This document shows positions 5,405 to 55,382 of a stretch of 64,000 nt of DNA, piece after piece. A program made the position numbers and the translations under genes. This stretch comes from an uncultured Pseudomonadales bacterium (GTDB lineage: Bacteria > Patescibacteriota > Microgenomatia > UBA1400 > UBA12028), in the NCBI GenBank assembly GCA_964635905.1, contig CAZWPK010000001.1, positions 437,096 through 501,095 of the forward strand, written 5' to 3'. Position 1 is the stretch's first letter, and the number at the start of each line of letters is the position of its first letter. The notes beneath the pieces are model-generated. The model saw nothing but the letters and a program-made list of their open reading frames with translations, made no database searches and was not told where the DNA came from.

Positions 5405-6469
5405 ATGAATTCAACCTGGAAGAGATTACGAGCCCAGCCCGACAAACTAACTTACTTGTATCAACGGGAGAAGATTGTTGATGCGATTCGACACTTTTTT
5501 AAGTCACAGGAGTTTTTAGAAGTAGACACACCTTTATTAGTTAAATCTCCTGGAACAGAGCCATATTTGGAAGTGTTTGCGACAACTCTGCTAGACTTTG
5601 AGCGTCATCCAACTCCTGCATATTTGCTCACTTCGCCAGAGTATGCATTAAAAAAATTGCTAGTTACTGGGATTCCAAAACTGTTTTCCATTTGTAAATC
5701 TTTTCGTAATGCAGAAGGTCTGTCCTTTAAACATAACCCTGAGTTTACCATCATGGAGTGGTATCGAACGCATGCAGACTACACTGACATTATGAAAGAC
5801 TGTGAACAGCTATTTGTTGCCATTGCACGAACCTTGGATACGACGCAGATTGGACCTACCACGTCCTGGACTTATCAAGGGAAAATGTATGATTTGACTC
5901 CCCCGTGGGAAAGAATTAGTGTTGCAGAGGCTTTTTTTAGCTACTGTGGGATTGATGTGGACACATTACTTGATGAGCGAAAGCTAAAGGAAGCAGGAAA
6001 AAAGCGCGGATTTTCCGTTGAATCCACTACAACTTGGGAACAGGTATACAACCAATTTTTACTCAACGATATCGAGCCGCATTTTGGAGTAGACCATCCG
6101 ACCATCATTTATGATTTCCCTGTTTCTCAAGCGTCGCTTGCTAAAAAAAAGGACTCTGATCCACGTTTTGCGGAGCGTTTCGAATTCTATGTGGCAGGAA
6201 TTGAGATGGGAAATGCGTTTTCAGAATTAACGGACGCCGAAGAGCAGCGATCCCGCTTTGAATCCGAACTTAACGAACGAGCCATCTTGGGCAAAACAGC
6301 ATATCAACTAGACGAAGATTACTTGGAAGCAATAAAAGCAGGTCTGCCACCCACCGGCGGGATAGCTGTTGGAATTGATCGTATCGTTATGTTTTTTGCG
6401 GATGCGCCGCAAATTTCAGATGTTGTTGTCTTTCCAGCGTCGGAATTATGGAACAAGCATTCTGATTAA
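5405..6469 (+). CDS. epmA: EF-P-lysine lysyltransferase EpmA (PoxA/GenX; LysRS catalytic-domain paralog)
   Basis: Class II aaRS core without an anticodon-binding domain. NPEFTIMEWY and GIAVGIDRIVMF match EpmA/LysRS motifs. A TATAAT box lies 10-11 nt before the ATG. Confidence 0.85.
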   Translation: MNSTWKRLRAQPDKLTYLYQREKIVDAIRHFFKSQEFLEVDTPLLVKSPGTEPYLEVFATTLLDFERHPTPAYLLTSPEYALKKLLVTGIPKLFSICKSFRNAEGLSFKHNPEFTIMEWYRTHADYTDIMKDCEQLFVAIARTLDTTQIGPTTSWTYQGKMYDLTPPWERISVAEAFFSYCGIDVDTLLDERKLKEAGKKRGFSVESTTTWEQVYNQFLLNDIEPHFGVDHPTIIYDFPVSQASLAKKKDSDPRFAERFEFYVAGIEMGNAFSELTDAEEQRSRFESELNERAILGKTAYQLDEDYLEAIKAGLPPTGGIAVGIDRIVMFFADAPQISDVVVFPASELWNKHSD

Positions 6470-39817: not shown

Positions 39818-41080
39818 TTACAGCGAAGAAATTTTTTCTTTTCCAAGAATTGGACGTAAAACTTGTGGAACGGTGATCGATCCATCTTCTTGTTGGTAAT
39901 TTTCAATCACTGCTGCAAGCAAGCGTGGTGTTGCGGCAACGGTATTATTTAAGGTGTACACATATTTGAGTTCACCCGTTGCTGTTTTATACCGCATGTT
40001 GAGTCGTCGTGCTTGAAAATCGTTAAAGTAACTTGCGGAATGTGTTTCACGATAGGTGTTCTCACCAGGAAACCAGGTTTCGATATCATACTTTTTCCGT
40101 TGACCGGCTCCCATATCACCCGTGCACATGAGAAGTACGTGATACGACAAACCTAATCCTTGCAATAATTCTTCGGAGTATGCCACCATCTGCTCATGCA
40201 TCACCTTTGTTTGTTCTTCATCCGCAACGGTTAACACGACTTGTTCTACTTTGCTAAATTGATGGACTCTGAAAAAACCCTTCGTATCTTTGCCATATGA
40301 TCCCACTTCACGACGAAAGCATGGTGAAATTCCTACAAGTTTGATTGGAAGATCTTTTTCGGTAAGCACTTCATTTTGATGATAGGCAGTCAACGATACT
40401 TCTGCAGTGCCAATCAGCCCTTGATCGTCTTGCGTCGTGTAATGATCTTCCATACCCCAAGGAAAATATCCAGTGCCCCAGAGTGCTTCCTTATTGACCA
40501 TCCAGGGAACGGTCATAGGAGTGAATCCTTTTGCAATCATTAATTGCAAGGCATACTGATGAAGTGCCATTTCAAGCAAGACAAGATCACCTTTAAGCAT
40601 GTAGGCGCGTCGCCCACCAATGGCAACTGCTTTTTCACTCTCAAACAGATTCAAGTTGGTTGCGAGCGCATAGTGTGGCTTTGGCTTGAATGCAAACGAT
40701 GGTTTTTCTCCCACCGTACGCACGACCACATTTTCTGTTTCATCTTTTCCAATCGGAGTATCAGTGGATGCGGGATTTGGAACATAGAGTAATAAGGAAT
40801 TAAATTCTGTTTCGACTGCTTTTAGTTCTGGCTCCACGGCTGCTAGTTGTGATTTAAATTCCTTTCCCGTTACAATTTCTTCCTCTGTTGGCTTTCTTCC
40901 CTTAATGGATGCAACATGTGTATTGGCTTGCTTTCGAATTCCCTCTACTGTTGCAATCAAGCCTCGTCGTTTGGTATCTAATGCTAACACCTGATCCACA
41001 ATTGCTGGATCCATTTGCTTTTCTGCGATTGCTTGTTTTAGTGTGTCGGCATTCTGCTGAATGTATTTGATATCGACCAT
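39818..41080 (-). CDS. serS: serine--tRNA ligase
   Basis: N-terminal coiled-coil arm plus class II core. 420 aa. Confidence 0.9.
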   Translation of the reverse strand: MVDIKYIQQNADTLKQAIAEKQMDPAIVDQVLALDTKRRGLIATVEGIRKQANTHVASIKGRKPTEEEIVTGKEFKSQLAAVEPELKAVETEFNSLLLYVPNPASTDTPIGKDETENVVVRTVGEKPSFAFKPKPHYALATNLNLFESEKAVAIGGRRAYMLKGDLVLLEMALHQYALQLMIAKGFTPMTVPWMVNKEALWGTGYFPWGMEDHYTTQDDQGLIGTAEVSLTAYHQNEVLTEKDLPIKLVGISPCFRREVGSYGKDTKGFFRVHQFSKVEQVVLTVADEEQTKVMHEQMVAYSEELLQGLGLSYHVLLMCTGDMGAGQRKKYDIETWFPGENTYRETHSASYFNDFQARRLNMRYKTATGELKYVYTLNNTVAATPRLLAAVIENYQQEDGSITVPQVLRPILGKEKISSL

Positions 41081-41339: not shown

Positions 41340-41480
41340 AGACTGTTCTACTTTAGGTTGTGGGTCAAAAAAAACCACGTCAATGACATCCGATTAGGAC
41401 GCAATTTGCGTGGTACCACCTAAAATTATACTTATTCCAGCTATAGTGGGCATACCCAGGTAGTATTTCTCTACCAGCTT
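41340..41480 (-). promoter_or_regulatory. probable T-box-like leader (motif at 41409-41423; terminator with U8 at 41366-41414) upstream of the serS operon
   Basis: On the minus strand, TTAGGTGGTACCACG is followed by a GC-clamped hairpin and UUUUUUUU. Confidence 0.4.
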
Positions 41481-41553
41481 AAAAAGCGAGTGCTAGTCGC
41501 ATGAGCTTTCAAACTAGTACTATTGTACTGCGGAAATCTTTGGATGCAAACAA

Positions 41554-42009
41554 TTACGTAGTGCTTGACTGTGTATGCAGTTGCAAAGCTTTCGTGACAA
41601 ATTCGAGTGTCCCTGGTAAGGTCTTAAGGTTGGAGATTTCGTCGAGCGTAAACCACTTCCAGTCTACTGATTCATCATCACTGATTGTTGGGACTTGGTC
41701 ATGGATGTCAATGCGATAAATAAACAAATTGACATGCGTCATACAGTTTTCATCCTCCCACAAGGAGAAATGAATTTGTGGCTCACTATCAAGAATGGTG
41801 ACATCCGTCAGTCCGAGTTCTTCTCTCAATTCTCGATGAAGAGATTCAATCAGGCTTTCACCATATTCTTGTCCTCCTCCAGGGAGCTGCCACTTTAAGT
41901 GTGCTTTGGGATTTGCAGGCTGATTTCGTTGGGATAAAAGAATGGAGAAATCAGGACGAATGGCGACTCCAAAGGCTCCATTGACGATTCGATTTTTGGA
42001 TTTATTCAT
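41554..42009 (-). CDS. NUDIX hydrolase
   Basis: Nudix box GGGQEYGESLIESLHRELREELGL. Confidence 0.75.
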   Translation of the reverse strand: MNKSKNRIVNGAFGVAIRPDFSILLSQRNQPANPKAHLKWQLPGGGQEYGESLIESLHRELREELGLTDVTILDSEPQIHFSLWEDENCMTHVNLFIYRIDIHDQVPTISDDESVDWKWFTLDEISNLKTLPGTLEFVTKALQLHTQSSTT

Positions 42010-42188
42010 TGTTTTATCCCACGGTCTGGAGGAAGGGGGAGATCGATTTTTAGTGTGCCATCATCTTTTTCTTCGCTCGTGATTGGGATCTCTGGAATAC
42101 CAAGTATTTGCCTACGTTTCTCTTCAACAGCTCGTTGTTCGGAAGGTGTACGTGGAGGTTTCCCTCCTCTTTCAGAATAATCACTCAT
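42006..42188 (-). CDS. hypothetical small protein (60 aa)
   Basis: ORF overlapping the NUDIX start by 4 nt. Confidence 0.25.
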   Translation of the reverse strand: MSDYSERGGKPPRTPSEQRAVEEKRRQILGIPEIPITSEEKDDGTLKIDLPLPPDRGIKQ

Positions 42189-42256: not shown

Positions 42257-44383
42257 CTAGAGGCCGATTTCCTGAGCATGCGCTTGCATCGCTGGAAGAA
42301 CAACTGAAATTAAGGTGTTCAAATCAATGTTCAGATGTGTTAGACCTTCCGTAATCTCCTCTCGAGTTGCCCCTTTTGCAAACGATTTCTCTTTAAATTT
42401 CTTAGCGACCCGTTCTGGGGTAACCGTGGCCAGTTTCTTCTCTGGCATGACTAAAGCACAGGCAACAATGATTCCGGTTAGGTGATCACAAGTATATAAA
42501 CACCATTCCATTAAGGACTCTGGATGTCGTTGACCTTCTAGGTGTTCATAGTTATGGGTGCGAATACTATCTGCCCAAGCGGGCTGAATTCCTAACTTTT
42601 CTAGCTCTTGAGACAAGACAAGTGTGTGTTGATCTGGAGTATCTTCAGTCTTCTCCCAGTCTGCATCATGAAGTAACCCAACCAGTTCCCAACTTTGCTG
42701 CGTTTCACTTACTTCTTGTGGTCGATTGGAAGAGAAATAGCTCCAGAGTCCCGACATTGCAGCTTCCACTGCAAACATATGAGATTTCAGATTTTGGTTG
42801 TCAATGAGTTGGTCTAGCAGCCCAACAGCTTGCTCACGAGTAAGTGTAAGAGCTGTCAAAGCACCCGGCTTTGTTGCGCTCTTCGCTTTGGGTGCATGGT
42901 GATTGAGCATCAACGCAGAAATCTTTTGCTGTTCTTCTGTGGGACGTAACGTAGGAAATGCGATGACTTCTTTAATGGACCAAGTGTTGGTCAAAAACAT
43001 CACCAGACGATCGATTCCAATTCCAATTCCACCTAGTGGAGGTAGTCCATGTTCCATGGCTGCGATGAAGTCCTCATCCAACGGTTGGGCTTCGGCATCT
43101 CCTTCGCGCATATTCTTTTGCTCATTTTCGAATCGGGCACGCTGATCGAGCGCATCGGTGATCTCACTCCAACCATCTGCCATTTCTTTAGTACCCACAT
43201 ACAGCTCGAAACGTTCTACAAATCCATCCTTACTTCGGTGCGCTTTGGCAAGGGGACTGACTTCTTTAGGATAATCAATGATCCAGGTTGGGTTTAACAA
43301 CTGCTTGGTTGTGAGGTGATCAAAAAGAGCAAAGATTGCTTTACCGCGGGTGAAACTACCGGTCAATTCAATGGTATGCGTTGCCAAGACTGCTTCCAGT
43401 TGCTCATCGGAAAGCTCGTTCACATCAATCTCATTATACTTTTTTAGTGCATCCGTCATGGTGATTCTTGGCCAGTTACCAGACAAATCAATTTGGGTTT
43501 GCCCGACATCGAGGGTAAGCGAGTTATAGAGCTTCTGAGCTAAGTGCTTAAACATTCCTTCGGCAACGTCCATCATGACGGTGTAGTCTGCGTAGGCGTG
43601 ATACCACTCAATCATCGTAAACTCTGGTTGATGAGTCTGATCAATGCCTTCATTTCTAAAGTTACGCGCAATTTCAAAGACTCTCTCGTAGCCACCGACA
43701 ATCAGACGCTTTAGATACAGCTCTGGAGCAATCCGCAAAAAGAAGTCACTATCCAACGCATTCATGTGTGTAGAGAATGGCTTGGCATTTGTTCCCCCAT
43801 ACAGAGGTTGAAGCACCGGGGTTTCCACTTCCACAAAGTTATAGACGTCTTGAAGATAGCGTCGAATTTCCTTTTCGATGAGCCAACGTGCATCCAGCAC
43901 TTTCTTGACCTGAGGATCAATGACCATGTCTAGATAACGGTTGCGAAAACGAACTTCTTTGTCTTCAATACCTTGGAATGATGCAGGCAGAGAGCGCAGT
44001 GCTTTGGAGAGCAGGGCAAGCTCACCGGCCTCGATCGTTATCTCCCCTGTTTTGGTTTGAATGACTTTCCCGGAAACACCCAAATAATCGGATGCATCGA
44101 TCAAGGTAACCAATTGCTTATAGGCAACAATTCCTACTGTCTCTTCTTTGACCATGACTTGAATGGTCCCAGATGGATCGGACAAATTGAGGAAGGTTAC
44201 CTTTCCGTGCTCGCGCTTGGACAGAATGCGTCCGGCCGTGGTTACCTCTTCACCTAGTGATTCTCGTGCAGTAGACACACCATGGGTTTTGGCAAAGCTA
44301 TACGGATGGACTACCACACCTTGGGCTTCTAGTTCTTTGCGCTTGGCAAGCTTGGCTTGAATTGTTTCATCGAGACGGGACAT
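42257..44383 (-). CDS. lysS: lysine--tRNA ligase (class II) fused to a ~200-aa C-terminal HD-domain (YqeK-like phosphohydrolase) extension
   Basis: LysRS core runs to ...IAFPTLRP at about residue 497 (E. coli LysS ends there). The extension carries H (KSHMFAVE), HD (LLHDADW), H (IRTHNYEH) and D (CDHLTG), matching the HD superfamily motif order. Confidence 0.85.
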   Translation of the reverse strand: MSRLDETIQAKLAKRKELEAQGVVVHPYSFAKTHGVSTARESLGEEVTTAGRILSKREHGKVTFLNLSDPSGTIQVMVKEETVGIVAYKQLVTLIDASDYLGVSGKVIQTKTGEITIEAGELALLSKALRSLPASFQGIEDKEVRFRNRYLDMVIDPQVKKVLDARWLIEKEIRRYLQDVYNFVEVETPVLQPLYGGTNAKPFSTHMNALDSDFFLRIAPELYLKRLIVGGYERVFEIARNFRNEGIDQTHQPEFTMIEWYHAYADYTVMMDVAEGMFKHLAQKLYNSLTLDVGQTQIDLSGNWPRITMTDALKKYNEIDVNELSDEQLEAVLATHTIELTGSFTRGKAIFALFDHLTTKQLLNPTWIIDYPKEVSPLAKAHRSKDGFVERFELYVGTKEMADGWSEITDALDQRARFENEQKNMREGDAEAQPLDEDFIAAMEHGLPPLGGIGIGIDRLVMFLTNTWSIKEVIAFPTLRPTEEQQKISALMLNHHAPKAKSATKPGALTALTLTREQAVGLLDQLIDNQNLKSHMFAVEAAMSGLWSYFSSNRPQEVSETQQSWELVGLLHDADWEKTEDTPDQHTLVLSQELEKLGIQPAWADSIRTHNYEHLEGQRHPESLMEWCLYTCDHLTGIIVACALVMPEKKLATVTPERVAKKFKEKSFAKGATREEITEGLTHLNIDLNTLISVVLPAMQAHAQEIGL

Positions 44384-47560: not shown

Positions 47561-47869
47561 TTATAGCTTTGCGACAGGTTCAGTCGATAAGTTAATGATG
47601 AGTTGTGTGTTGTCGTCCGGGGCGACAATATTTTTAATGACGGTATGACACTCTTCACAGCGATACACAATTTGCTGCTTCCCCGACTTCATCTCCAGTC
47701 CAATCGGTTTCAAGTCCCCCCTACACAAATTGGCTCGATCTCCTGGCTCGTTATCCACGTGCAGGCCGGTCAGGCAGTACGGACAATGATCACGACTACT
47801 ACTTGGATGTGGCGCCACGGTCTTGCCACACTGCACACAGTCAAAACCGTCATTACGTTGTATGAACAC
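47561..47869 (-). CDS. RNHCP-like zinc-ribbon domain protein (102 aa) inserted between atpD and atpC
   Basis: CVQCGK...SRDHCPYC...CEECH Cys/His pattern. Confidence 0.45.
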   Translation of the reverse strand: MFIQRNDGFDCVQCGKTVAPHPSSSRDHCPYCLTGLHVDNEPGDRANLCRGDLKPIGLEMKSGKQQIVYRCEECHTVIKNIVAPDDNTQLIINLSTEPVAKL

Positions 47870-55022: not shown

Positions 55023-55094
55023 GGGCCCGTAGCTCAGTGGTAGAGCAGGAGCCTTTTAAGCTCTGTGTCGTGAGTTCGATCCTCACCGGGCTCA
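55023..55094 (+). tRNA. tRNA-Lys (anticodon TTT)
   Basis: GGGCCCGTAGCTCAGTGGTAGAGCAGGAGCCTTTTAAGCTCTGTGTCGTGAGTTCGATCCTCACCGGGCTCA forms a cloverleaf with anticodon loop CTTTTAA. No CCA encoded. Confidence 0.85.
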
Positions 55095-55132
55095 CAGACA
55101 TACTATGTATAGTGTGAGAGAATTTCTAGGTT

Positions 55133-55205
55133 GGCCCCATCGTCTAGAGGCCTAGGACACCTGGTTTTCATCCAGGCAACCCGAGTTCGAATCTCGGTGG
55201 GGTCA
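55133..55205 (+). tRNA. tRNA-Glu (anticodon TTC)
   Basis: GGCCCCATCGTCTAGAGGCCTAGGACACCTGGTTTTCATCCAGGCAACCCGAGTTCGAATCTCGGTGGGGTCA with anticodon loop TTTTCAT. Canonical T-loop TTCGAAT. Confidence 0.85.
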
Positions 55206-55382
55206 CAAATATCGTAAGGTTCAGCGCGACCCGTTCGCCTGCGCAAAAAAGCCCGATAAGGCTTGCTAATTTTTGACCGAATTGTTCGAAATCGAGTTTT
55301 AGATCCTGTAATAGGTGAATTTACCCCAATGGGACACTCCCTTTTAAAACCACGAGAAGAACACCTACCCCTGTAGATGTCG

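What the first reader, a model, noticed from the sequence alone, without database searches (positions are those of the whole stretch)
42257..44383. Lysyl-tRNA synthetase fused to a C-terminal HD-domain phosphohydrolase (possible built-in Ap4A hydrolase)
The LysRS core ends at ...IAFPTLRP (about residue 497), where canonical LysS proteins terminate. This protein continues for ~210 aa. The extension carries the HD superfamily motif series H...HD...H...H...D (KSHMFAV / LLHDADW / IRTHNYEH / CDHLTG), most like YqeK-type HD hydrolases. LysRS is the main cellular source of diadenosine tetraphosphate, and YqeK-like HD proteins hydrolyse Ap4A. A covalent fusion would couple synthesis and degradation of this alarmone, or serve another tRNA- or nucleotide-linked role. 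I am not aware of this fusion being characterised.
Basis: partly seen in the sequence, partly recalled or inferred. Interest (0 to 1): 0.7.

Follow-up and report, generated by a model that had tools for sequence, protein, structure and literature searches.

The report
Lysyl-tRNA synthetase with tethered HD hydrolase
This gene really does encode a lysyl-tRNA synthetase joined by a floppy linker to an intact metal-dependent HD phosphohydrolase, an arrangement shared by hundreds of tiny-genome (Patescibacteria/CPR) bacteria, whose HD partner follows lysyl-tRNA synthetases of both unrelated classes and has no assigned function.

Summary
ORF 42257-44383 (-) encodes 708 aa. Residues 6-482 are a bona fide class II LysRS, scoring above NCBIfam cut-offs. 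A 34-aa low-complexity linker follows, then a 193-aa HD domain.

The fusion is not an artefact. All 120 best database matches are 672-727-aa LysRS+HD proteins from Patescibacteria. In 45 of them, H535, H572-D573, H586, H610 and D633 are invariant.

The domain belongs to a large family of about 190-aa free-standing HD proteins. In 37 of 80 species genomes, that gene is fused to, or lies directly downstream of, a LysRS. This holds for class II (31 genomes) and class I (6 genomes). One class I LysRS-B3/4-HD fusion also exists. A close relative swapped its LysRS class in situ and kept the HD gene.

The YqeK assignment is not supported. There is no significant sequence match, and YqeK's substrate-binding residues are absent. 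The nearest solved folds are the degenerate HD domain of bacterial GlyRS-beta and cyclic-dinucleotide phosphodiesterases.

Ap4A/Ap4N hydrolysis remains the leading guess but is unproven. A role at the tRNA(Lys) 3' end is a serious rival. I found no paper describing this fusion.

The parts
42257..44383 (-). Whole lysS-HD fusion ORF, 708 aa plus stop
   Evidence: Single ORF. Full-length homologues at 53-95% identity, 672-727 aa.
44015..44245 (-). N-terminal OB-fold anticodon-binding domain (residues 47-123)
   Evidence: PF01336, E=4e-14. Coordinates verified.
42947..43963 (-). Class II aaRS catalytic core (residues 141-479). Together with the OB domain this forms a complete LysRS (residues 6-482).
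   Evidence: PF00152, E=2.4e-87. PRK00484 scores 596 bits and TIGR00499 scores 533 bits, both above cut-off.
42839..42940 (-). Flexible low-complexity linker (residues 482-515, TEEQQKISALMLNHHAPKAKSATKPGALTALTLT)
   Evidence: In 45 fused homologues the linker is 22-53 aa and hypervariable in sequence. Within the linker, residues 492-506 have pLDDT below 50, and the full-length pTM is 0.46.
42260..42838 (-). HD-superfamily (HDIG-like) phosphohydrolase domain (residues 516-708)
42779..42781 (-). H535, first metal-ligand histidine
   Evidence: Invariant in A1 (40 sequences) and A4 (45 fused sequences).
42665..42670 (-). H572-D573, the HD doublet, within the invariant GLLHDxDWE motif
   Evidence: Invariant. 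D575 and E577 are also invariant in fused proteins.
42626..42628 (-). H586, putative ligand of the second metal
   Evidence: Invariant in A4 and nearly invariant in A1.
42554..42556 (-). H610, putative ligand of the second metal (RTHN)
   Evidence: Invariant. It aligns with the YqeK 'IEIHT' histidine in the profile alignment.
42485..42487 (-). D633, distal metal-ligand aspartate
   Evidence: Invariant in A4. In A1 it is D in more than 90% of sequences and E in the rest.
42362..42400 (-). Family-specific basic motif K662-x-K664-x3-F668-A669-x4-R674 (KFKEKSFAKGATR), a likely phosphate or polyanion binding loop
   Evidence: K662, K664, F668, A669 and R674 are invariant in 45 fused proteins. The binding role is inferred.
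39818..41080 (-). serS (seryl-tRNA synthetase), a conserved downstream member of the lysS-HD-serS cluster
   Evidence: Pfam Seryl_tRNA_N plus tRNA-synt_2b. Seryl_tRNA_N matches 24 and tRNA-synt_2b matches 22 of the 68 downstream neighbour proteins taken from 35 LysRS-linked loci.

Best explanation
The gene encodes a genuine bifunctional protein. The N-terminal part is the organism's housekeeping class II lysyl-tRNA synthetase. A 22-53-aa disordered tether joins it to an independently folding, catalytically intact HD-type phosphohydrolase that carries a two-metal ligand set (H535; H572-D573; H586; H610; D633).

The HD module is a dedicated LysRS accessory in Patescibacteria. Selection keeps it fused to, or immediately downstream of, whichever LysRS the genome uses.

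The most likely mechanism is inferred, not shown. The tethered HD site hydrolyses a phosphoanhydride or phosphoester by-product of lysyl-adenylate chemistry released at the synthetase. The leading candidates are dinucleoside polyphosphates such as Ap4A, Ap3A and Ap4N. This would be analogous to YqeK or ApaH, but the enzyme is not a member of either family. The effect would be to recycle adenine nucleotides and to stop alarmone or cap-precursor build-up in cells that cannot make purines de novo.

Confidence differs by step. It is about 0.95 that this is a real, conserved fusion with an active-looking HD hydrolase functionally coupled to LysRS. It is about 0.35-0.4 that the substrate is specifically Ap4A/NpnN.
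For: Architecture and authenticity
- There is one ORF.
- LysRS scores are above the curated cut-offs.
- The 120 best hits all have the same two-domain length, and most carry PF01966.
- A partial fused copy sits on an independent JGI contig.

Catalytic competence
- The six metal ligands are invariant in 45 fused proteins at 53-95% identity.
- They are also invariant or nearly so in 40 free-standing relatives.
- The pattern H...HD...H...H...D matches the binuclear centre described for YqeK: H21/H50/D127 and H83/H109/D51 (PMC13627108).
- The HD model is confident, with pLDDT 96.2.

Coupling to LysRS
- Of 80 species-representative genomes carrying a close HD homologue, 7 have it fused to class II LysRS.
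- In 24 it lies downstream on the same strand, within 0-632 nt and often overlapping.
- In 6 it lies downstream of class I LysRS.
- A class I LysRS-B3/4-HD fusion exists: P0494, a continuous 992-aa ORF.
- In L001/L005, a syntenic relative of this window, the lysS slot holds class I LysRS-B3/4. The HD gene follows 37 nt later.
- That HD is 62-71% identical to fused HDs of the window clade but at most 46% identical to other free HDs.
- NJ trees suggest at least 2-3 separate fusion events.

Nucleotide-type substrate
- The same HD family is also fused to Ham1/ITPase (P0274) and sits in a LysRS-HAD-HD fusion (P0253).
- Its neighbours in LysRS-linked loci include Ham1 (3), YfbR-like (3), His_Phos_1 (3), CYTH (2), Nudix (1) and HIT (1).
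- A Nudix gene lies two genes downstream in the window.
- The only PDB chain touched by the family profile is YqeK, at a non-significant E=0.11.

Tether
- The linker is hypervariable.
- The full-length model gives low pLDDT across the junction and linker (475-482 and 492-506 below 50) and pTM 0.46.

Background
- Class II LysRS is the main Ap4A source (PMC13627108 introduction).
Against: - No biochemical data exist.
- The domain is not a YqeK by sequence or by substrate-binding residues.
- By motif-anchored spacing, YqeK's K54 (HD+3) is replaced by an invariant aromatic flanked by acidic D575 and E577. R18 and R133 correspond to hydrophobic residues. This mapping is an inference without a structural alignment.
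- Linkage and fusion to class I LysRS are hard to reconcile with a class II-specific side reaction. From prior knowledge, class I LysRS activates lysine only with tRNA bound.
- The best structural neighbours are the tRNA-acceptor-arm-binding HD of GlyRS-beta and cyclic-dinucleotide phosphodiesterases, not YqeK.
- 43 of the 80 genomes, mostly non-CPR, carry the HD gene with no LysRS within 4 kb, so the family has a function that does not require LysRS.
- Some Firmicutes that probably also have YqeK carry this family next to RNase R. Their YqeK content was not checked.
Confidence: 0.4

Rival explanations
1. tRNA(Lys)-directed module. The HD domain works on or with the acceptor end of tRNA(Lys). 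One option is a phosphoesterase that removes 2',3'-cyclic or 3'-phosphates from damaged tRNA 3' ends, as the HD domain of the E. coli CCA-adding enzyme does, so that LysRS can charge them. Another is a hydrolase for a mis-made aminoacyl or adenylate species, working alongside the B3/4 editing-type domain.
For: - The HD is linked or fused to both LysRS classes, which share tRNA(Lys) and lysyl-AMP but not a fold.
- It recurs in triple fusions with B3/4, the PheRS-beta editing-domain fold that binds the tRNA 3' end (P0199, P0381, P0494).
- Family members hit NCBIfam models for RNase Y (20 of 40), a tRNA Cm56 methyltransferase model, PRK12703 (7 of 40), and CCA tRNA nucleotidyltransferase (2 of 40).
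- An EndoV-HD fusion exists (P0383).
- The HD gene lies near an RNB-domain (RNase R-type) protein in 3 loci unlinked to LysRS.
- It lies next to ThrRS in 6 CPR loci; 5 of those ThrRS lack the N-terminal editing domains.
Against: - The GlyRS-beta HD has lost the HD doublet (Ser-Lys) and is non-catalytic, whereas this one keeps all ligands. The resemblance may therefore reflect only the shared HDIG/RNase Y-type fold.
- The long disordered tether and low pTM give no evidence that the HD site is positioned at the tRNA 3' end.
- Fusions to Ham1 and HAD, and neighbours such as YfbR, Nudix and HIT, point to small nucleotides.
Confidence: 0.27
2. Generic nucleotide house-cleaning enzyme with no mechanistic tie to LysRS. 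Under this reading the HD protein is a nucleotidase, a (d)NTP or non-canonical-nucleotide phosphohydrolase, or a small-alarmone or cyclic-dinucleotide hydrolase. It merely sits in a conserved translation-gene cluster of streamlined genomes, and loss of a stop codon occasionally fuses it to the upstream gene.
For: - The family is large: 4338 clusters at E<=1e-3.
- It occurs free-standing and without LysRS linkage in Chloroflexi, Firmicutes, Bipolaricaulota, Thermotogae, Actinomycetota and archaea.
- Many adjacent genes overlap or lie only 0-12 nt apart, which makes accidental fusion easy.
- The cluster also holds serS or thrS.
- Other fusion partners are diverse: Ham1, AMMECR1, PAS-GGDEF and a PQQ propeller.
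Against: - LysRS lies upstream on the same strand in 37 of 80 genomes. One specific gene among roughly 1000 would be expected there by chance in well under 1% of genomes.
- The linkage survives replacement of class II by class I LysRS.
- Fusions occur with both LysRS classes and in at least 2-3 lineages.
- The fused form is kept across a LysRS clade spanning 53-95% identity, with all catalytic residues intact.
- No fusions to SerRS or ThrRS were seen among the top 150 family representatives.
Confidence: 0.2
3. Non-catalytic appended domain. The HD fold would serve only as a structural or RNA-binding extension, as in GlyRS-beta.
For: The closest solved folds are the non-catalytic GlyRS-beta HD domains.
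Against: All six metal ligands, plus D575, E577, K662, K664 and R674, are invariant across 45 fused proteins at 53-95% overall identity. GlyRS-beta, by contrast, lost the HD doublet.
Confidence: 0.03
4. Artefact. A frameshift, a mis-assembly or a lost stop codon joined lysS to a separate HD gene only in this assembly.
For: In 24 of the 80 sampled species genomes, and in close relatives such as L001 and L003, the two are separate genes.
Against: - A 95%-identical 708-aa protein and dozens of 64-86%-identical fused proteins come from independent assemblies held by NCBI, JGI, ENA and Logan.
- The reading frame is continuous, with stops in both other frames across the linker.
- The linker is present but variable in every fused homologue.
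Confidence: 0.01

Closest known systems
YqeK (COG1713, TIGR00488), the symmetrical Ap4A/Ap4N hydrolase of Firmicutes
   Same: Both are HD-superfamily domains of about 190 aa. Both show the H...HD...H...H...D ligand pattern of a binuclear metal centre. YqeK is the only PDB sequence touched by the family profile. Both would plausibly have LysRS-made dinucleoside polyphosphates as substrate.
HD domain of the bacterial/plastid heterotetrameric GlyRS beta subunit (PDB 7EIV, 8IE2, 7XJY, 7YSE)
   Different: The GlyRS-beta HD has lost the catalytic doublet (Ser393-Lys394 in E. coli) and acts in tRNA acceptor-arm recognition (PMC8464048). The LysRS-attached HD keeps every metal ligand, hangs on a disordered linker, and also exists as a free-standing gene. 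Sequence identity is only 11-16%.
PgpH / HD-GYP / RNase Y-type HDIG domains (c-di-AMP and c-di-GMP phosphodiesterases, RNase Y)
   Different: The 'HDIGK' signature is replaced by 'HDADWE'. There is no 7TM, GYP, KH or sensor module. The window domain itself is below the HDIG cut-off, at 16 bits against 27.6.
PDB 2PQ7, a structural-genomics 'predicted HD superfamily hydrolase' from an uncultured Thermotogales bacterium
   Different: It was not detected by profile search at E<=10, fewer residues superpose, and there is no known link to an aaRS.
Other LysRS fusions, for example LysX (MprF-LysRS) of mycobacteria
   Same: A housekeeping-type class II LysRS covalently joined to a second enzyme that uses a LysRS product.
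   Different: LysX carries an N-terminal membrane lysyl-phosphatidylglycerol synthase. Here the partner is a C-terminal soluble HD hydrolase. The LysX model scores 499 bits, below its 742-bit cut-off.

Membership tests
Class II lysyl-tRNA synthetase (LysS) | Full-length match to curated LysRS models above their cut-offs, with an N-terminal OB anticodon-binding domain plus a class II catalytic core | tested here: met
   PRK00484 scores 596 bits (cut-off 468). TIGR00499 scores 533 bits (cut-off 427.6). PF01336 and PF00152 both match. The separate EpmA paralogue at 5405-6469 lacks the OB domain.
HD superfamily (PF01966) | All-helical HD fold with conserved H...HD...D metal ligands | tested here: met
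HDIG subfamily (TIGR00277) | Match to the HDIG model above cut-off, with the HDIG signature after the first helix pair | tested here: inconclusive
   The window domain gives E=0.008-0.0095 and 16 bits against a cut-off of 27.6. 34 of 40 relatives hit the model, best E 2.7e-11. The signature reads HDAD, not HDIG.
YqeK Ap4A hydrolase (TIGR00488 / COG1713) | Significant match to the YqeK model or to solved YqeK chains | tested here: not met
YqeK Ap4A hydrolase (TIGR00488 / COG1713) | Binuclear metal centre built from H, HD, H, H, D | tested here: met
   Six equivalent residues are invariant. The YqeK ligands are listed in PMC13627108. Metal occupancy itself cannot be tested here.
YqeK Ap4A hydrolase (TIGR00488 / COG1713) | Polyphosphate-binding R18, K54 and R133, and base-stacking F135 and F163 | tested here: not met
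   By motif-anchored spacing, the position 3 before the first H is L532. HD+3 is W576, flanked by D575 and E577. D633+6 is hydrophobic. This was judged from sequence spacing, not from a structural superposition.
YqeK Ap4A hydrolase (TIGR00488 / COG1713) | Symmetrical hydrolysis of Ap4A to 2 ADP | not testable with these tools
   Requires an enzyme assay.
GlyRS-beta-type aaRS HD domain | HD fold embedded in an aaRS, with a degenerate HD doublet and a non-catalytic tRNA acceptor-arm contact | tested here: not met
   The fold similarity is the best in the PDB. The doublet and all other ligands are intact here, whereas EcGlyRS has Ser-Lys. tRNA contact cannot be tested here.

The most novel reading that the evidence does not exclude
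The HD protein defines a previously unrecognised, LysRS-dedicated catalytic accessory module of Patescibacteria. Both structurally unrelated LysRS classes recruited it independently, often together with a B3/4 editing-type domain.

Its substrate would then be something the two classes share, namely tRNA(Lys), Lys-tRNA(Lys) or (mis)activated aminoacyl-adenylate, rather than Ap4A. Candidate activities are repair of the tRNA(Lys) 3' end, or hydrolytic proofreading of adenylates in cis or in trans. This would be the first catalytically active HD domain working as part of an aminoacyl-tRNA synthetase.
Probability: 0.3. Interest if true: 0.8.

Novelty: new variant of a known kind. Interest (0 to 1): 0.62.

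Why it matters
Aminoacyl-tRNA synthetases rarely acquire a second catalytic domain, and when they do it usually marks an editing or signalling function.

Here an active-looking HD phosphohydrolase is welded to, or kept directly behind, LysRS across a large part of the Patescibacteria, a major and largely uncultured bacterial radiation with minimal genomes. The association survives even when the LysRS class is swapped. That amounts to a strong 'Rosetta-stone' prediction of an unknown LysRS-coupled reaction.

If the substrate is Ap4A/Ap4N, this would be a third, non-orthologous solution to dinucleoside-polyphosphate turnover after ApaH and YqeK. It would also be physically coupled to the producer, showing that CPR bacteria regulate this alarmone and RNA-cap precursor.

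If the substrate is tRNA or an adenylate, it would be a new kind of aaRS quality-control or repair module. It would also give a functional context for the puzzling degenerate HD domain of bacterial GlyRS.

Either way the family has thousands of members, no characterised representative that I could find, and a simple route to testing by recombinant protein assay.

Tried and rejected
- **Single-sequence searches of the 218-aa extension.** Pfam gave no hit, PDB phmmer gave no hit, and NCBIfam gave only a sub-threshold HDIG hit. The family had to be reached through homologues.
- **Family profile against PDB sequences.** Only YqeK appeared, at E=0.11, plus a spurious TagU match. That is too weak for assignment.
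- **Full-length AlphaFold model, run to see whether the HD site faces the LysRS active site.** The model gave pTM 0.46, a disordered linker and a poorly modelled part of the core (a shallow 45-sequence alignment, monomer only).
- **afdb50 fold search.** The library was unavailable.
- **Artefact or frameshift hypothesis.** Rejected.
- **The 73-aa ORF between HD and thrS in some CPR loci as a split-off TGS domain.** Rejected. It is a conserved small membrane protein.
- **A second LysRS in the window.** The only other hit is EpmA.
- **A leader RNA upstream of lysS.** None was found. The only hit is a weak T-box-like match in front of the serS region.
- **Literature.** Eight full-text searches found no description of a LysRS-HD fusion or of this HD family. 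The held library is incomplete, so this is absence of evidence only.
Full report
**1. The observation**

The window carries one uninterrupted ORF on the minus strand, 42257..44383, of 708 codons with an ATG start.

Curated models place a complete class II lysyl-tRNA synthetase at residues 6-482. NCBIfam PRK00484 scores 596 bits against a cut-off of 468, and TIGR00499 scores 533 against 427.6. Pfam finds the OB anticodon-binding domain at 47-123 and the class II core at 141-479.

The extension is therefore 227 aa.

Across the junction both other reading frames contain stops, so no frameshift is hidden there. GC content is uniform across the gene.

**2. Is the extension an HD domain?**

On its own the extension is almost invisible to profile libraries. 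It gets no Pfam hit, no PDB sequence hit, and only a sub-threshold HDIG match (E about 0.01, 16 bits against 27.6).

A search of 5.8 billion proteins changes the picture. It returns 134 relatives with E-values down to 1e-80. Most are free-standing proteins of about 190 aa. Many carry PF01966 or are labelled 'predicted hydrolase (HD superfamily)', and they come from Patescibacteria such as Berkelbacteria.

In a 40-sequence alignment, 31 members hit Pfam HD and 34 hit TIGR00277 HDIG.

An AlphaFold model built on that alignment is very confident, with pLDDT 96.2 and pTM 0.92. It is all-helical.

An exhaustive HMM search finds 4338 clusters at 50% identity with E<=1e-3, and 389 with E<=1e-30. This is a large family, and I could find no characterised member.

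**3. Is the fusion real and how widespread is it?**

With the full-length protein as query, all 120 best hits are 672-727 aa, apart from a few truncated entries and one 929-aa variant. They carry LysRS domains, and most also carry PF01966.

They include proteins that are 95%, 85% and 76% identical, from independent assemblies. Source names include Woesebacteria, Cerribacteria, Saccharimonadia and Pacebacteria. Sources annotate them simply as 'lysine--tRNA ligase'. A partial fused copy also sits on a 943-nt JGI contig.

In an alignment of 45 fused proteins at 53-95% identity, the following HD-domain residues are invariant:
- the metal-ligand candidates H535, H572, D573, H586, H610 and D633;
- W565, G569, L570, D575, W576 and E577;
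- G637, A641 and P647;
- K662, K664, F668, A669 and R674.

It missed H586 and counted non-conserved histidines (H614, H634).

The linker between the domains is 22-53 aa, low-complexity and unalignable. A full-length model gives pLDDT below 50 for the linker and pTM 0.46. The HD domain thus looks like an independently folded module on a flexible tether. No statement about the relative orientation of the two active sites is possible from these tools.

**4. Genomic linkage beyond the fusion**

I fetched the 80 best HD-family loci from one-genome-per-species contigs. I then located LysRS of either class around each with tblastn.

| Arrangement of the HD gene | Loci |
|---|---|
| Fused to class II LysRS | 7 |
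| Downstream of class II LysRS, same strand | 24 |
| Downstream of class I LysRS | 6 |
| No LysRS within 4 kb | 43 |

- Among the 24 downstream loci, the spacing is often -6 to +21 nt.
- Three of the six class I loci also carry a C-terminal B3/4 domain.
- The 43 unlinked loci are mostly Chloroflexi, Firmicutes, Bipolaricaulota, Thermotogae, Actinomycetota and archaea, plus some CPR.
- In every linked case LysRS is upstream and co-directional.

The most telling relative is L001/L005 (GCA_964492495.1). It shares the window's gene order: ATP synthase beta, RNHCP protein, ATP synthase epsilon, GreA, then the LysRS slot. In that slot, however, sits a 794-aa class I LysRS-B3/4 protein, and 37 nt later a free-standing 197-aa HD gene. 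The same arrangement appears in L003.

That HD is 62% identical to the window's HD and 71% identical to another fused HD (P0134). It is at most 46% identical to any other free-standing HD. In a neighbour-joining tree it nests inside the window's fused clade. The simplest reading is an in-situ swap of LysRS class, with the HD module retained as a separate gene.

A query made by concatenating the class I LysRS-B3/4 and HD sequences found P0494. This is a continuous 992-aa ORF on an NCBI contig: class I LysRS (13-507), B3/4 (536-765), a linker, and HD (806-992) with an HDADYE motif. The HD domain is therefore covalently fused to both of the two structurally unrelated LysRS classes.

Triple fusions of class II LysRS-B3/4-HD (P0199, P0381) and LysRS-HAD-HD (P0253) also exist.

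Rough NJ trees of the LysRS parts place the window in one large all-fused LysRS clade. Two further fused groups (L017/L035 and L015/L031/L034) sit among unfused lineages. This suggests at least two or three fusion events. There are no support values, so this is indicative only.

**5. What kind of HD enzyme?**

*Sequence level.* The family is HDIG-like. Members hit models for RNase Y (20 of 40), a DVU_1551-type NTP transferase (17), TIGR00295 (12), a tRNA Cm56 methyltransferase model, PRK12703 (7), NadD-YqeK (6) and YqeK (5). A family profile touches only one PDB protein, a YqeK, at a non-significant E=0.11.

The GlyRS-beta HD has lost the HD doublet (Ser393-Lys394). It is thought to bind the tRNA acceptor arm and discriminator base (PMC8464048; bioRxiv 10.1101/2023.05.29.542759). 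The LysRS-attached HD keeps every ligand.

The published YqeK structures define two features (PMC13627108):
- a binuclear centre formed by H21/H50/D127 and H83/H109/D51;
- substrate contacts through R18, K54, R133, F135 and F163.

The ligand pattern is matched here. By motif-anchored spacing the contact residues are not: L532 replaces R18, W576 flanked by D575 and E577 replaces K54, and a hydrophobic residue replaces R133. The domain is therefore not a YqeK family member. It could still work like one.

**6. Other context clues**

*Pointing to small nucleotides:*
- fusions HD-Ham1/ITPase (P0274) and LysRS-HAD-HD;
- neighbours of LysRS-linked HD genes that include Ham1 (3), YfbR-like HD (3), histidine phosphatase (3), CYTH (2), Nudix (1) and HIT (1);
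- a Nudix gene two genes downstream in this window (41554-42009).

*Pointing to RNA or tRNA:*
- the GlyRS-beta fold similarity;
- B3/4 co-fusions;
- an EndoV-HD fusion (P0383);
- RNase R-type (RNB-domain) proteins near the HD gene in three unlinked loci;
- ThrRS next to HD in six CPR loci, five of them lacking the N-terminal editing domains;
- SerRS downstream in most linked loci, including this window.

The aaRS-rich neighbourhood may partly reflect conserved synteny in streamlined genomes. Among the intermediate-length and long members of the top 150 family representatives that I checked with Pfam, the only aaRS fusion partner was LysRS.

**7. Mechanism and rivals**

*Shown:*
- a real, conserved two-enzyme polypeptide;
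- an intact LysRS;
- an HD fold with a conserved two-metal ligand set;
- a disordered tether;
- strong, class-independent genomic coupling of this HD family to LysRS in Patescibacteria.

*Inferred:* the HD site hydrolyses a phosphoester or phosphoanhydride that LysRS makes or binds.

I rank the explanations as follows:
1. **Clearance of lysyl-adenylate-derived dinucleoside polyphosphates (Ap4A/Ap4N), about 0.35-0.4.** Class II LysRS is the classic Ap4A source. The chemistry fits a binuclear HD site. The nucleotide-handling fusion partners and neighbours agree with it.
2. **A tRNA(Lys) 3'-end or aminoacyl/adenylate-directed role, about 0.27.** This is favoured by the class I linkage, the B3/4 fusions and the GlyRS-beta similarity.
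3. **A generic nucleotide house-cleaning enzyme with only operon-level association, about 0.2.**
4. **A non-catalytic domain, about 0.03.**
5. **An artefact, about 0.01.**

The last two are essentially excluded.

**8. Novelty and score**

HD hydrolases, aaRS-appended domains and Ap4A hydrolases are all known kinds. The specific architecture is visible in public databases but is annotated only as 'lysine--tRNA ligase'. Eight full-text searches found no description of it or of the HD family.

I classify it as a new variant of a known kind. It is more interesting than a one-off fusion for three reasons. It is widespread in a major uncultured radiation. The HD follows both LysRS classes. It yields a directly testable prediction.

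Interest: 0.62.

Noticed in passing
L001:3577-5961 (+), L005, L003, L023, L061; proteins P0387-P0461: Class I LysRS with a C-terminal B3/4 domain (the PheRS-beta editing-domain fold), about 790 aa, is common in Patescibacteria. About 75 of the 120 best hits have PF01921 plus PF03483. Whether the B3/4 domain edits mischarged tRNA(Lys) or only binds tRNA is unknown to me.
   Followed up: partly
L025:4799-6004, L051:4825-6087, L053:4835-6076, L068:4833-6080, L080:4940-6160: In five CPR loci, the ThrRS gene just downstream of the HD gene is only 401-420 aa. It matches TIGR00418 only from about position 165 onward, so it lacks the N-terminal TGS and editing domains. A full-length 578-aa ThrRS occupies the same position in L014.
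   Followed up: partly
L014:2374-2595, L025:4560-4784, L049:4577-4798, L051:4604-4828, L068:4588-4809, L080:4600-4821: A conserved small ORF of about 73 aa, predicted to be a membrane protein with the motif ..NNFIGGIAWGLGATIGLA.., lies directly downstream of free-standing HD genes in several CPR genomes. The window has no equivalent. Its 60-aa ORF at 42006-42188 is unrelated.
   Followed up: no
window 41554-42009 (-): A Nudix hydrolase (PF00293, E=1.2e-19) lies two genes downstream of lysS-HD on the same strand. Some Nudix enzymes cleave Ap4A asymmetrically. A NUDIX-domain protein was seen downstream in only one of the sampled LysRS-linked loci.
   Followed up: partly
window 41392-41523 (-): A weak T-box-leader-like match (30.6 bits, E=7e-4, far below the gathering score of 93) lies upstream of the 70-aa ORF and serS. 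It may be chance.
   Followed up: no
window 5405-6469 (+): An EpmA/GenX gene (EF-P lysine aminoacylase; TIGR00462 scores 350 bits against a cut-off of 286.9). It is a LysRS paralogue without the anticodon-binding or HD domains.
   Followed up: yes
window 47561-47869 (-) and L001:1647-1952: An RNHCP-domain zinc-ribbon protein (PF12647) sits next to, and overlaps, the ORF that occupies the ATP synthase epsilon position. The L001 counterpart of that ORF has ATP-synt_DE_N. The arrangement is conserved in the relative L001.
   Followed up: no
proteins P0274, P0383, P0320, P0253, P0325, P0268: The same HD family has other fusion partners: HD-Ham1 (ITPase), Endonuclease V-HD, AMMECR1-HD, LysRS-HAD-HD, PAS-GGDEF-HD and PQQ-propeller-HD. 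Ham1 and EndoV both deal with inosine or deaminated purines, which may hint at the family's substrate.
   Followed up: partly
L006, L014, L015, L017, L019 and other loci titled 'uncultured Gammaproteobacteria/Pseudomonadales': Many 'MAG TPA_asm' records labelled Gammaproteobacteria or Pseudomonadales carry typical Patescibacteria genes and have chromosomes of about 0.7-1.6 Mb. L005 is the syntenic relative of this window. Their taxonomic labels look wrong.
   Followed up: no
window 55023-55206 (+): tRNA-Lys(UUU) and tRNA-Glu(UUC) genes lie in tandem about 11 kb from lysS-HD. Nothing unusual was noted.
   Followed up: no
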